This document shows, piece after piece, positions 3,001 to 6,000 of a stretch of DNA of 15,767 nt (within the stretch, counting starts at the first letter, position 1; the number at the start of each line of letters is the position of its first letter). Source of the stretch: a virus (Duplodnaviria; Heunggongvirae; Uroviricota; Caudoviricetes); the IMG/VR virus record IMGVR_UViG_2700989171_000012; one strand, 5' to 3'. Made by a program: the position numbers.

Positions 3001-6000
3001 GGGGGGGTTATGCGTGATGATCGTTTTAATTCCCTGAAACAGGAATTTTCCGGCGTTCCTGATGATGCGGCTGATGCGCTTTCGTCAATGCCAGAACTTA
3101 TTAGAGCGGCTTTTTTCTTACTTTCCACGAGAGAATATAAATCAACGGGCTTGATGTACTGAATATCGCCGCCGATTATGCTGATTTCGTGACAGAGGTT
3201 ATTTTAAGAAAAACGACGGACGGGGATTAATATGCGTGATATTTACCACGAAACAATAGACCGCGCATTTCTTGCACTTTCTCACAGTGAAAACATGCTG
3301 GAAATATTGCGCATATGGCTTGAAACACTTGGCGACAATGAACGCGACAAACAAAAATCAAGAATTGCCACGGCATTAATAACGCTTCTTGAGCCTGTAA
3401 TAATGGAACTGCAAGAAATAGATCTATTGCACGACAGATATAAAGAACAACACACCGGAGAATAAAAATAATGAAACTTAAATATTCTGGCTTAACTGCC
3501 AGTGGCAACACTCACCCTAAATTTACGCGCGGTGATATTTACCGCGACCAGTACGGCGGCATGGTAACGATTAAAGGCGTGGCAGAACGGCGCATCACCT
3601 ACCGCCGTGAAGGTTACGAATATGATTGCGTGATGCCTGTTTATCAATTCCGGCGTGATTTCACGCTGGTACAGGCAGCGCCCCGCAGTAAACCAACCAG
3701 CAGGGAGAAAGCACGCGCCAATATTCAGGAAATAAAAAAGATGCTTAACGTATTCAGGGGTAAAAAATGAAACTGGCACCGAACGTAAAAAAACAGCCAC
3801 GCGGAATAAAACACAAAGACACAGAGGTAATTATCTTTGCGGGTAGTGATGCCTGGTCGCACGCGAAACAATGGCAGGAGCAGGATGGCCCCGCATCCGG
3901 CGATAATGTGCCGCCTGTGTGGCTTGGGCCAAATCAGCTTGCCGAACTTGATGCACTGAAAATTGTTCCGGATGGAAAAAAACGCGTAAGGCTGTACCAG
4001 GCCGGAGAACTGGATTTGGTGGAGACCAAAAAGATTGGTCAGAAGCTGGCGGCGGCAGATATTCAGGACGCAAATTTTTACCCCGAAGGAATGCACGTCC
4101 AGAAGTGTGAAAACTGGCGGCGCTATCTGAATGCTGAGCGTGAAAATATTGCCGCAGGGCTTACCATGCCGGAGCAGAAAAATACGCAACTGGCACAAAT
4201 GGCAGACAGTGAGCGCGCGCAGCTGCTTGCCGAGCGCTTTGATGGCGTTTGTGTGCATCAGGAAAGTGAAATCGTTCACGTATGGCGCGGCGGGGGATGG
4301 TGTCCGGTCAGCACAATGGAACTTAGCCGCGAAATGGTGGTGATCTATTCAGAGCACAGGGCCACTTTCAGCAAGCGCGTAATCAATAACGCCGTGGAAG
4401 CGTTAAAAGTTATTGCCGAACCAATGGGCGAGCCGTCCGGCGATTTGCTGCCGTTCGCCAATGGTGCGCTTGACCTGAAAACGGGGGAATTTTCCCCGCA
4501 CACGCCGGAGAACTGGATCACCACGCACAACGGCATTGAGTACACGCCACCAGCACCAGGGGAGAACATCCGCGATAACGCGCTAAACTTTCATAAATGG
4601 CTTGAGCACGCAGCCGGAAAAGACCAGCGCAAGATGATGCGTATATGTGCCGCGCTGTACATGATTATGGCGAACCGGTACGACTGGCAGATGTTTATTG
4701 AGGCCACCGGAGACGGCGGGAGCGGTAAAAGTACATTCACACACATAGCCAGCCTTCTGGCAGGGAAACAGAACACGGTAAGCGCTGAAATGACATCGCT
4801 TGATGATGCTGGTGGACGTGCGCAGGTTGTCGGGAGTCGTCTTATCGTCCTGGCTGACCAGCCGAAATATACAGGCGAAGGAACGGGCATCAAGAAAATC
4901 ACGGGCGGTGACCCCGTGGAAATTAACCCGAAATACGAAAAGCGTTTCACGGCTGTAATCAGGGCGGTGGTGCTGGCGACCAACAATAACCCGATGATAT
5001 TCACCGAACGGGCCGGAGGTGTGGCACGTCGTCGCGTGATTTTCCGTTTCGACAATATCGTTAGTGAGGCCGAAAAAGACAGGGAGCTACCGGAAAAGAT
5101 TGCGGCTGAAATCCCTGTCATTATCCGCCGATTGCTGGCGAACTTTACCGACTCTGAGAAAGCACGGGCTTTACTACTGGAACAGCGTGACGGTGATGAA
5201 GCTCTGGCAATAAAGCAACAGACGGATCCGGTTATTGAGTTTTGCCAGTTCCTGAATTTTCTGGAGGAAGCACGCGGCCTGATGATGGGCGGCGGTGGCG
5301 ATTCAGTGAAGTACACGACCAGAAACAGCCTTTACCGCGTCTATCTGGCGTTTATGGCGTACGCAGGCAGGAGCAAACCGCTAAACGTAAATGACTTTGG
5401 CAAGGCTATGAAGCCAGCCGCGAAAGTTTACGGACATGAATATATTACGCGGAAAGTTAAGGGAGTAACGCAGACTAACGCAATAACAACAGACGAGTGC
5501 GACGCGTTTTTATAATTTTTTGTAATTGCTGTCTACCCTGTCTACCTGAGTAAAGAAAAATACATTTAATTCAGTGCATTAAGTTAGGTAGATAGCCTTT
5601 TTTTACTGTCTACCCACTATCTACCCTCTCTACCTGATTTTACCTGAATCAGACAGGGAGGTAGACACGGGGTAGATAGTGGATAAAAGCACTCTACCCC
5701 GCTGAAAGCAGCGCCATTACTGGCATGAGGGCCACTAAGGTAGATAAGGTAGACAAGGGGAGGCACAACTCAAAACTTTTTAAACGAGGGGGTAAAAATA
5801 AATATGCACACTTCAGGGAAATTTAATAAATCATTCAAAAAACGCAGAGACAGAACAGAACCGAAATATCGCGCGTTAGACATGACAGAGCACGCTTTAA
5901 AGGTGGCAATCAGAACGATAGACCGCCACGCGGGGGAAGGATACGCGAAAGCACATCCCGAACTGATAAGCGCATTCATGACCACGACGGCGGCAAATTT

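What the first reader, a model, noticed from the sequence alone, without database searches (positions are those of the whole stretch)
5521..5765. Iteron plus AT-rich origin immediately downstream of the primase/helicase gene
About 11 copies of GGTAGA(C/T)A or its complement, in clusters on both sides of an AT-rich stretch (5548-5586). This is the classic layout of a replicon origin bound by its own initiator, as in SaPI and PICI pri-rep/ori modules, and it supports autonomous replication after induction.
Basis: partly seen in the sequence, partly recalled or inferred. Interest (0 to 1): 0.5.

Follow-up and report, generated by a model that had tools for sequence, protein, structure and literature searches.

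The report
Replication origin of a phage satellite
The repeat cluster is real and is the replication origin of an E. coli/Shigella phage-satellite island (PICI); it is 95% identical to an origin already tested in the laboratory, so the finding is correct but ordinary.

Summary
Eleven GGTAGA cores lie in 5530-5755: nine exact GGTAGAYA (0.46 expected by chance) and two variants. The first starts 15 bp after the stop codon of the 582-aa gene. Only two other GGTAGA occur in the window.

The island has the same backbone and the same phoQ junction as EcCICFT073. Window 5516-5803 is 95.1% identical to the CFT073 pri-downstream segment. Published deletion of that segment (equivalent to window 5520 to about 5827) impaired Pri-dependent plasmid maintenance (Fillol-Salom 2018).

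The initiator is a compact relative of phage P4 alpha: 39% identity across the SF3 helicase and the winged-helix origin-binding domain (PDB 1KA8). The iteron TGTCTACC differs at two bases from the P4 type-1 repeat TGTTCACC.

Across seven E. coli lineages, 82% of core columns are invariant against 23% of the other columns. About 40 homologues from other genera carry other iteron sequences in a recognisably similar layout, and iteron class tracks the C-terminal domain.

Refinement: ten of the eleven sites form an exact dyad centred near 5642. The AT-rich stretch fills the left-arm spacer. The mirror spacer is a conserved GC-rich block of unknown role.

Novelty: already known. Interest is low.

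The parts
3767..5515 (+). Initiator gene (582 aa). It has an N-terminal Toprim-like domain, a D5_N + SF3 helicase region, and a C-terminal winged-helix origin-binding domain.
   Evidence: Pfam D5_N, DUF5906 and Pox_D5. TIGR01613 'phage/plasmid primase, P4 family'. 39% identity to P4 alpha residues 326-762, E 3e-108. PDB 7OLA (SaPI5 PriRep5) E 1e-15 and 1KA8 E 7e-7.
3767..4186 (+). N-terminal domain (about residues 1-140), mosaic and variable between lineages (39-86% identity). Predicted Toprim-like fold; primase activity is unproven.
5222..5497 (+). C-terminal winged-helix origin-binding domain (residues 486-577), the inferred iteron reader.
   Evidence: phmmer hit to PDB 1KA8, the P4 alpha origin-binding domain, E 7e-7. 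99% identical to the EcCICFT073 protein over residues 486-582. Its sequence co-varies with iteron class.
5520..5790 (.). Origin of replication as a whole: iteron array, AT-rich spacer, GC block and A4CT5 element.
   Evidence: Equivalent to the segment deleted in the EcCICFT073 pri-delta-ori construct. 95.1% identical to CFT073.
5530..5546 (-). Outer left iteron pair: GGTAGACA x2 at 5530-5537 and 5539-5546, 9 bp apart.
   Evidence: Invariant in 7 lineages.
5548..5586 (.). AT-rich left-arm spacer (23% GC), the candidate DNA-unwinding element.
   Evidence: The equivalent spacer of 35-45 bp has low GC in most homologous origins.
5587..5594 (+). Single inverted iteron GGTAGATA. With 5607-5614 it forms a convergent pair with a 16-nt spacer between the 6-bp cores.
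   Evidence: (I20).
5607..5634 (-). Inner left iteron triplet: GGTAGACA 5607-5614, GGTAGATA 5618-5625, GGTAGAGA 5627-5634.
5625..5661 (.). Centre of the dyad (axis ~5642.5), with a short inverted repeat CCTCTCTACCTGATT / AATCAGACAGGGAGG.
   Evidence: I9; site spacings.
5660..5678 (+). Inner right iteron pair: GGTAGACA 5660-5667 and GGTAGATA 5671-5678, 11 bp apart.
5691..5698 (-). Single inverted iteron GGTAGAGT. With 5671-5678 it forms a convergent pair with a 16-nt spacer between the 6-bp cores.
   Evidence: (I21).
5699..5738 (.). Right-arm spacer, the mirror of the AT-rich stretch. It is GC-rich (57%) and partly invariant (TGAAAGC.GCG.CATTACTG.C.TG). Function unknown.
5739..5755 (+). Outer right iteron pair: GGTAGATA 5739-5746 and GGTAGACA 5748-5755, 9 bp apart.
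5772..5781 (+). AAAACTTTTT element 18 nt after the last iteron. It is conserved across genera and iteron classes, and a similar A-run/T-run follows the terminal site pair in each P4 crr repeat.
5804..6082 (+). First downstream gene (92 aa, phrog_1231, function unknown). It travels with pri-ori in every homologous module examined.

Best explanation
Window 5520 to about 5790 is the vegetative origin of replication of a phage-inducible chromosomal island. The island has an EcCICFT073-type backbone and carries a capsid-forming packaging module.

The inferred mechanism is as follows. When a helper phage induces the island through AlpA, the rightward operon expresses the 582-aa P4-alpha-like protein. 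Its C-terminal winged-helix domain reads the 8-bp iterons (A)GGTAGA(Y)A. Tandem sites are 9 or 11 bp apart, and the convergent pairs are 22 bp apart centre to centre, so successive sites lie roughly on one face of the helix. The two mirror-image half-origins, each of the form << -40- > -16- <<, would each nucleate one SF3 helicase hexamer. The duplex would open at a low-stability stretch (the left-arm AT-rich spacer 5548-5586, and possibly the AT-rich right edge around 5772-5835). The self-loaded helicases would then drive replication of the excised circle.

Shown here: the motif statistics, the site geometry, the conservation, the homologies, and near-identity to an origin whose deletion impairs Pri-dependent plasmid maintenance. 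Inferred: physical binding, double-hexamer assembly, the melting site, and the source of primers.
For: The motif is enriched and confined to the region. The region starts 15 bp after the initiator stop codon.

The region is 95.1% identical to the EcCICFT073 intergenic region, with identical site positions. The C-terminal domain is 99% identical to the CFT073 protein.

Published experiment: the pri-ori fragment supports plasmid maintenance at 44 C, and the delta-ori and delta-pri constructs do not (PMC6092414). Primer mapping puts the deleted ori at window 5520 to about 5827.

The C-terminal domain is homologous to the P4 alpha origin-binding domain 1KA8, and the helicase to SaPI5 PriRep5 7OLA. 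Identity to P4 alpha is 39%.

The P4 GenBank record annotates TGTTCACC 'ori type 1 repeats' in ori and in crr, and crr lies directly 3' of the alpha gene.

Footprint: 54 of 66 core columns are invariant against 42 of 179 non-core columns in 7 lineages that are 61-95% identical.

A 41%-identical initiator in vB_KppS-Ant is followed by 11 sites of the TGTTCACC type in the same order and orientation as here.

Among 80 genomic homologues, 41 have a 6-mer repeated at least 6 times downstream of the gene. These fall into at least 9 sequence classes, and the layout << AT > <<< >> < >> recurs, wholly or in part, in most of them.

At matched helicase identity, pairs with the same iteron class have more similar C-terminal domains (0.48-0.60 against 0.38-0.45).

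The same pri-ori module sits in PICIs with different packaging modules and integration sites.
Against: No binding or replication data exist for this exact sequence. In the published test the ori deletion reduced colony numbers, but single iterons were not mutated.

The AT-rich stretch is not unique: about 1% of 39-mers in the window are as AT-rich, and a second low-stability stretch lies at 5792-5835. The melting site is therefore uncertain.

The N-terminal domain lacks sequence similarity to known primases, and the canonical Toprim acidic motif is not obvious. How primers are made is unknown.

The island is partly decayed, with a capsid nonsense codon and an SSB/PerC deletion. Replication of this particular copy may no longer lead to transfer.

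The tests of C-terminal domain against iteron class are not corrected for shared ancestry.
Confidence: 0.9

Rival explanations
1. The array is mainly a transcriptional operator or regulatory region for the downstream genes (5804 onward), bound by the initiator or by another regulator, rather than an origin.
For: It lies directly upstream of the next gene. The last 30 bp before the ATG are strongly conserved. Initiators often autoregulate through their own binding sites (general knowledge).
Against: No sigma-70-like promoter and no terminator were found on the + strand in 5400-5900. Gram-negative PICIs are described as transcribed unidirectionally from the AlpA-controlled region (PMC6092414). 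Deleting the homologous segment impairs plasmid maintenance when pri is driven from an arabinose promoter, which is a replication phenotype. A similar site layout lies immediately 3' of alpha in P4, where crr is followed by the attP region and no downstream operon.
Confidence: 0.05
2. The array is only a P4-crr-like cis-acting enhancer, and the true start site (a separate ori) lies elsewhere in the island.
For: In P4 the cluster directly 3' of alpha is crr, and the ori lies about 4.5 kb away. The initiator is alpha-like.
Against: No second cluster exists in the window. Only two isolated GGTAGA lie outside the region, at 750 and 15275. The EcCICFT073 pri-ori fragment alone was sufficient for maintenance.
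Confidence: 0.04
3. The repeats are a packaging (terminase recognition) site or a partition (centromere-like) site.
For: Short repeats flanking AT-rich DNA also occur in pac/cos-adjacent sites and in parC-type centromeres (general knowledge).
Against: The repeats travel with the pri gene, not with the packaging genes. The identical module occurs next to three different packaging modules (window). Repeat sequence tracks the initiator's C-terminal domain. No ParA, ParM or ParR genes are present. The HNH-TerS junction, where a cos site would be expected, is 5 kb away.
Confidence: 0.01
4. The repeats are a chance cluster or a structured RNA gene.
For: The single strand folds better than shuffles (z -5.0).
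Against: None of 200 shuffles reached the observed motif count. The fold is explained by the inverted arrangement of the sites. Rfam gives only microRNA-like hits far below threshold. Conservation is concentrated on the cores, not on pairing partners.
Confidence: 0.005

Closest known systems
EcCICFT073 pri-ori replicon (E. coli PICI; Fillol-Salom et al. 2018, ISME J, PMC6092414)
   Same: Same right-hand chromosomal junction (phoQ), with 90% nucleotide identity across the integrase region. The initiator is 90% identical overall and 99% in the C-terminal domain. The origin is 95.1% identical, with all 11 sites in the same place. The layout matches the one described there for E. coli PICIs.
   Different: The N-terminal domain of the initiator is only 68% identical. 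The packaging region is a capsid-forming (cf-PICI) module instead of the capsid/decoration/cos arrangement. This copy carries a capsid nonsense codon and an SSB/PerC deletion.
Satellite phage P4 alpha protein with ori and crr
   Same: The SF3 helicase and winged-helix origin-binding domain are 39% identical. The 8-bp sites are TGTCTACC here and TGTTCACC in P4. A site cluster lies immediately 3' of the initiator gene, with mixed orientations, AT-rich spacers and an A-run/T-run element after the terminal pair.
   Different: P4 needs two separated cis elements, and its crr is a direct 120-bp duplication. Here there is a single dyad-symmetric array. P4 alpha has a 325-residue DnaG-type primase domain (PMC2777425). 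Here there is an unrelated 140-residue domain. The iteron differs at 2 of 8 positions.
SaPI Rep/PriRep origins (Staphylococcus aureus pathogenicity islands)
   Same: The origin lies immediately downstream of rep. There are 6-12 short iterons, an AT-rich region, and at least two sites on each side in opposite orientation. The initiator is a self-loading SF3-type helicase with a C-terminal winged-helix domain (PMC9371898). The helicase core matches PriRep5 7OLA, E 1e-15.
   Different: The similarity is remote and limited to the helicase core. The iteron sequences and lengths differ (penta- or hexanucleotides in SaPIs). The host and the regulation differ (Stl repressor in SaPIs, AlpA activator here).
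vB_KppS-Ant (LR881103) and related Klebsiella/Raoultella islands
   Same: The initiator is 41% identical over its full length. Eleven sites occur in the same order, orientation and approximate spacing.
   Different: The iteron is the P4-type TGTTCACC. Both long spacers are AT-rich, whereas the right-arm spacer here is GC-rich and conserved.

Membership tests
PICI pri-rep/ori replicon | The origin lies immediately 3' of the initiator gene | tested here: met
   The stop codon ends at 5515 and the first iteron starts at 5530.
PICI pri-rep/ori replicon | Two sets of short iterons flank an AT-rich region, with at least two sites on each side in opposite orientation | tested here: met
   Two minus-strand sites lie left of 5548-5586 (23% GC). 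Nine sites of mixed orientation lie to the right, and the outer pairs are inverted relative to each other.
PICI pri-rep/ori replicon | Island context: integrase, AlpA, rightward operon, specific attachment site | tested here: met
   Integrase 1-1230, AlpA 1605-1793, phoQ junction as in EcCICFT073.
PICI pri-rep/ori replicon | The cloned fragment replicates only when the initiator is supplied | not testable with these tools
   This was shown for the 95%-identical EcCICFT073 fragment (PMC6092414), not for this sequence.
PICI pri-rep/ori replicon | The initiator binds the iterons sequence-specifically | not testable with these tools
   Inferred from homology of the C-terminal domain to 1KA8 and from covariation of that domain with iteron class.
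P4 alpha / ori-crr replicon | Initiator with an SF3 helicase and a C-terminal winged-helix origin-binding domain | tested here: met
   39% identity to alpha residues 326-762; 1KA8 E 7e-7.
P4 alpha / ori-crr replicon | N-terminal DnaG-type primase domain | tested here: inconclusive
   [not shown]
P4 alpha / ori-crr replicon | Type-1 iteron TGTTCACC | tested here: not met
   The consensus here is TGTCTACC, matching at 6 of 8 positions.
P4 alpha / ori-crr replicon | Two separate cis elements (ori plus crr) | tested here: not met
   There is a single cluster. Only two isolated GGTAGA occur elsewhere in the 15.8-kb window.
Iteron plasmid origins (RepA/pi/TrfA type) | Tandem direct repeats of 17-22 bp, conserved DnaA boxes, a WH1-WH2 Rep that recruits host DnaB | tested here: not met
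   The sites are 8 bp and occur in both orientations. The only DnaA-like box (5678-5686) is absent from other lineages. The initiator is itself a helicase.
Capsid-forming PICI (context of the island) | Own capsid, protease, portal, head-completion and head-tail connector proteins, HNH, TerS and TerL, and no tail genes | tested here: met
   Pfam hits. The capsid gene carries an in-frame TGA, so this copy is probably defective.

The most novel reading that the evidence does not exclude
The alpha-like initiator family may use a fixed origin grammar: ten sites in exact dyad symmetry, with spacings 9-46-22-11 | 11-22-46-9. Site order and orientation recur, at least in part, across at least nine iteron sequence classes and several genera. 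Two further conserved parts are not iterons: a class-specific GC-rich block (5699-5738) that replaces one of the two AT-rich spacers, and an A4CT5 element (5772-5781) also seen after the terminal site pair in P4 crr. If these are functional, for example as a priming start, a host-factor site, or a device that makes loading asymmetric, they would be undescribed components of PICI/P4 origins. The initiator's short, variable Toprim-like N-domain could then be a minimal or degenerate primase.
Probability: 0.3. Interest if true: 0.4.

Novelty: already known. Interest (0 to 1): 0.2.

Why it matters
This is the cis element that lets a phage satellite amplify itself after a helper phage induces it, which is a prerequisite for high-frequency transfer of the island. 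For this window the value is mainly in annotation. It fixes the origin, its 11 sites and its cognate initiator. It also shows that the replication module is intact even though the capsid gene and the SSB/PerC region have decayed. The comparative result gives a ready-made design for specificity-swap experiments, because the same site layout occurs with different iteron words that track the winged-helix domain. It is an extension of known biology, not a new kind of system.

Tried and rejected
- The promoter and terminator scan of 5400-5900 found nothing on the + strand, so a promoter-centred reading was dropped.
- Rfam at a permissive threshold gave only microRNA-precursor-like hits at 22-24 bits against gathering scores of 59-150. 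The strong single-strand fold (z -5) simply reflects the inverted sites.
- A DnaA-like box (TTATCCACT, minus strand, 5678-5686) occurs only in the window and CFT073 lineages and not in the others. I treated it as chance.
- A hairpin in the GC block (CGCTG-AAAG-CAGCG) is not kept in CFT073 and was rejected. The small palindrome GCCA-N4-TGGC is only partly conserved and is left unexplained.
- Full-text searches for the P4 iteron sequence returned nothing useful. I used the GenBank annotation of NC_001609 instead.
- The published reverse primer rep-2c does not match CFT073 exactly. By my reading of the CFT073 sequence printed it differs by a one-base indel, possibly from text extraction, so the right end of the tested fragment is approximate.
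- Pfam, NCBIfam and PHROGs gave no function for the N-terminal domain or for the two downstream small genes.
- The protein search with the N-domain returned mostly E. coli fragments, so the alignment used for structure prediction was shallow.
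Full report
**Observation.** The intergenic region 5516-5803 follows the stop codon of the 582-aa gene 3767-5515. GGTAGAYA occurs nine times in the 15,767-base window, always between 5530 and 5755. Dinucleotide-preserving shuffles give a mean of 0.46, and none of 200 reached nine. The 6-mer core GGTAGA occurs 13 times, 11 of them in 5532-5753. The two additional copies are GGTAGAGA (5627-5634, minus strand) and GGTAGAGT (5691-5698, minus strand). Core density is 38 per kb inside the region and 0.13-0.25 per kb outside it, in the window and in two homologous loci of 16-20 kb. No other 288-bp stretch holds more than one copy. The stretch 5548-5586 has 23% GC against 50% for the window and contains the least stable 30-40 bp of the intergenic region (z about 3). 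It is not unique: about 1% of 39-mers are as AT-rich, and 5792-5835 is equally unstable.

**Anatomy.** Site orientations are - - | AT-rich | + | - - - | + + | - | GC block | + +. Centre-to-centre spacings are 9, 46, 22, 11, 9, 31, 11, 22, 46, 9. Leaving out the site at 5629, ten sites form an exact two-fold arrangement about ~5642.5. A short inverted repeat (5625-5639 / 5647-5661) is centred at the same place. Tandem sites are 9 or 11 bp apart. Two convergent pairs have the form GGTAGA-N16-TCTACC. The AT-rich stretch is the long spacer of the left half-origin. Its mirror image (5699-5738) has 57% GC.

**Context.** The window is a phage-inducible chromosomal island. Its genes are:
- integrase (1-1230) and AlpA (1605-1793);
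- a DUF4222 protein and the P4-family primase/helicase;
- two small genes;
- capsid, prohead protease, portal, head-completion and connector proteins;
- HNH, TerS and TerL, followed by phoQ on the other strand.

This is the gene set of a capsid-forming PICI. The backbone and the phoQ junction match EcCICFT073 at 90-97% identity over int, 2801-6082 and the right end. The closest genome found is Shigella flexneri SFBU1023, at 99.98% over 5.3 kb.

**Link to a tested origin.** Window 5516-5803 is 95.1% identical to the region downstream of the primase gene of strain CFT073 (H47). That locus is EcCICFT073 itself. All eleven cores lie at the same positions and in the same orientation. Fillol-Salom et al. 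[quoted passage not shown] They report that a pKO3-blue derivative carrying EcCICFT073 pri-ori gives colonies at 44 C, whereas the pri-delta-ori and delta-pri-ori derivatives do so significantly less or not at all. Their primer list lets the constructs be mapped. The pri-delta-ori insert ends at the CFT073 position equivalent to window 5519. The pri-ori insert ends about 25 bases into the next gene, near window 5827; that primer matches only with a one-base indel. The finding's coordinates therefore fall inside the experimentally defined origin of a near-identical element. The origin matches 564 of 5,426 complete E. coli genomes.

**Comparison with P4.** The GenBank record of P4 annotates 'ori type 1 repeats' in ori and crr. 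All six in ori and five of the ten in crr read TGTTCACC; the other five in crr differ at one base. The record places crr directly 3' of the alpha gene. The iteron here, TGTCTACC, differs at two adjacent positions. There is no second cluster in the window, so the bipartite ori-plus-crr arrangement of P4 is not reproduced.

**Comparative evidence.**
- In seven E. coli lineages whose origins are 61-95% identical, 54 of 66 core columns are invariant against 42 of 179 other columns. Sliding the core mask by 3-8 bases drops the count from 54 to 13-31.
- The bases flanking the core differ by lineage (GGTAGAYA in some, GGTAGAGG in others).
- The induced element vB_KppS-Ant encodes a 41%-identical initiator. 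It is followed by eleven TGTTCACC-type sites in the same order and orientation as here.
- A scan of representative bacterial genomes returned 80 homologous loci. In 41 of them the 420 bp after the gene contain a 6-mer repeated at least six times.
- These repeats fall into the classes GGTAGA, GGTGAAC, ATGAACAC, CGGACAGT, GGTCACT, GGTATACA, GGTAGGG, GCACTG and TGGAAG. Most show part or all of the layout << (35-45 bp, mostly AT-rich) > (about 17) <<< (about 20) >> (17-27) < (36-40) >>.
- At matched helicase identity, pairs of proteins with the same iteron class have more similar C-terminal domains (0.48-0.60) than pairs with different classes (0.38-0.45).
- Residues 509-510, 564, 566, 568, 569 and 581 separate the GGTAGA class from the GGTGAAC class. 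These comparisons are not corrected for shared ancestry.
- The pri-ori module also moves as a unit. A 98.7%-identical copy sits in a different PICI, with other packaging genes, at the cspD/clpS site.

**Mechanism.** The best-supported reading has four steps:
- AlpA-driven expression supplies the alpha-like protein.
- Its winged-helix domains bind the arrayed sites.
- One hexamer assembles on each half-origin.
- A low-stability stretch melts and the helicase loads itself, as proposed for SaPI Reps and P4 alpha.

The homologies, the geometry, the conservation and the published phenotype of the near-identical fragment are shown. Binding, double-hexamer assembly, the melting site and the primer source are inferred.

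**Rivals.**
- A purely transcriptional role is unlikely. There is no promoter or terminator on the + strand. The published phenotype was obtained with pri expressed from an arabinose promoter. A similar site cluster lies 3' of alpha in P4, with no operon downstream of it.
- A crr-only role is unlikely because there is a single cluster and the pri-ori fragment sufficed.
- A packaging or partition role is contradicted by the module's association with three different packaging modules and by the absence of partition genes.
- Chance and a structured RNA are excluded.

**Unexplained.** In the GGTAGA class the right-arm spacer is GC-rich and partly invariant (TGAAAGC.GCG.CATTACTG.C.TG). It is recognisable from E. 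coli to Xenorhabdus, Rosenbergiella and Raoultella. In the P4-type class the same spacer is AT-rich. An A(3+)CT(3+) element (5772-5781) lies 9-21 nt after the last iteron in 15 of 41 loci from at least three iteron classes, against a 0.5% expectation per locus. An A-run/T-run also follows the terminal site pair in both P4 crr repeats, with the intervening C present in only one of them. Neither element has an assigned role.

**Verdict.** The element is a near-identical copy of a published, functionally tested PICI origin, so it is already known. The added value is the exact dyad geometry, the family-wide layout with changing iteron words, and two conserved non-iteron elements.

Noticed in passing
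window 7684-7686 (within 6811-8016): The major capsid gene carries an in-frame TGA where an intact E. coli homologue (NZ_CP027368) has TGG, i.e. Trp to stop at codon 292 of the 6811-8016 reading frame. This cf-PICI copy probably cannot build its own capsids.
   Followed up: yes
window ~6455-6470: About 490 bp present in the E. coli homologue are missing here. The deletion removes most of the SSB gene and the 5' part of the PerC gene. A PerC C-terminal remnant remains at 6394-6555.
   Followed up: partly
window 10353-10435 and 11230-11280: Two runs of N (masked sequence) lie inside the head-tail connector gene and at the start of the TerS gene. They create false AT-rich signals in composition scans.
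   Followed up: no
[not shown]
   Followed up: partly
window 5699-5738: A GC-rich, partly invariant block sits in the right-arm spacer of the origin. It is specific to the GGTAGA iteron class; the same spacer is AT-rich in the P4-type class. It contains the small palindrome GCCA-TTAC-TGGC (5713-5724).
   Followed up: partly
window 5772-5781; also P4 crr (L009 ~4290-4590): An AAAACTTTTT element lies 9-21 nt after the last iteron in 15 of 41 homologous origins from several iteron classes, against about 0.5% expected. A similar A-run/T-run follows the terminal site pair in both P4 crr repeats.
   Followed up: partly
window 5678-5686 (minus strand): TTATCCACT is a near-consensus DnaA box inside the spacer of a convergent iteron pair. 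It is present only in the window and CFT073 lineages, so it is probably chance.
   Followed up: yes
L001 (E. coli UID2309220036, NZ_CM142674) 9068-11383: The same pri-ori-orf module (98.7% identical) is carried by a different PICI with other packaging genes, integrated between cspD/yljB and clpS. The replication module is exchanged as a unit between islands.
   Followed up: partly
L076 (Pantoea stewartii) and L019 (Xenorhabdus yunnanensis), downstream of the initiator gene: These are truncated origins. L076 keeps only the left half-origin, and L019 lacks the inner left sites. They are probably decayed replicons.
   Followed up: no
L010 (Shigella flexneri SFBU1023) 5334-5673: The closest genome differs from the window by about 340 extra bases near window 6577-6599, so the window is from a close relative rather than from this strain.
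   Followed up: no
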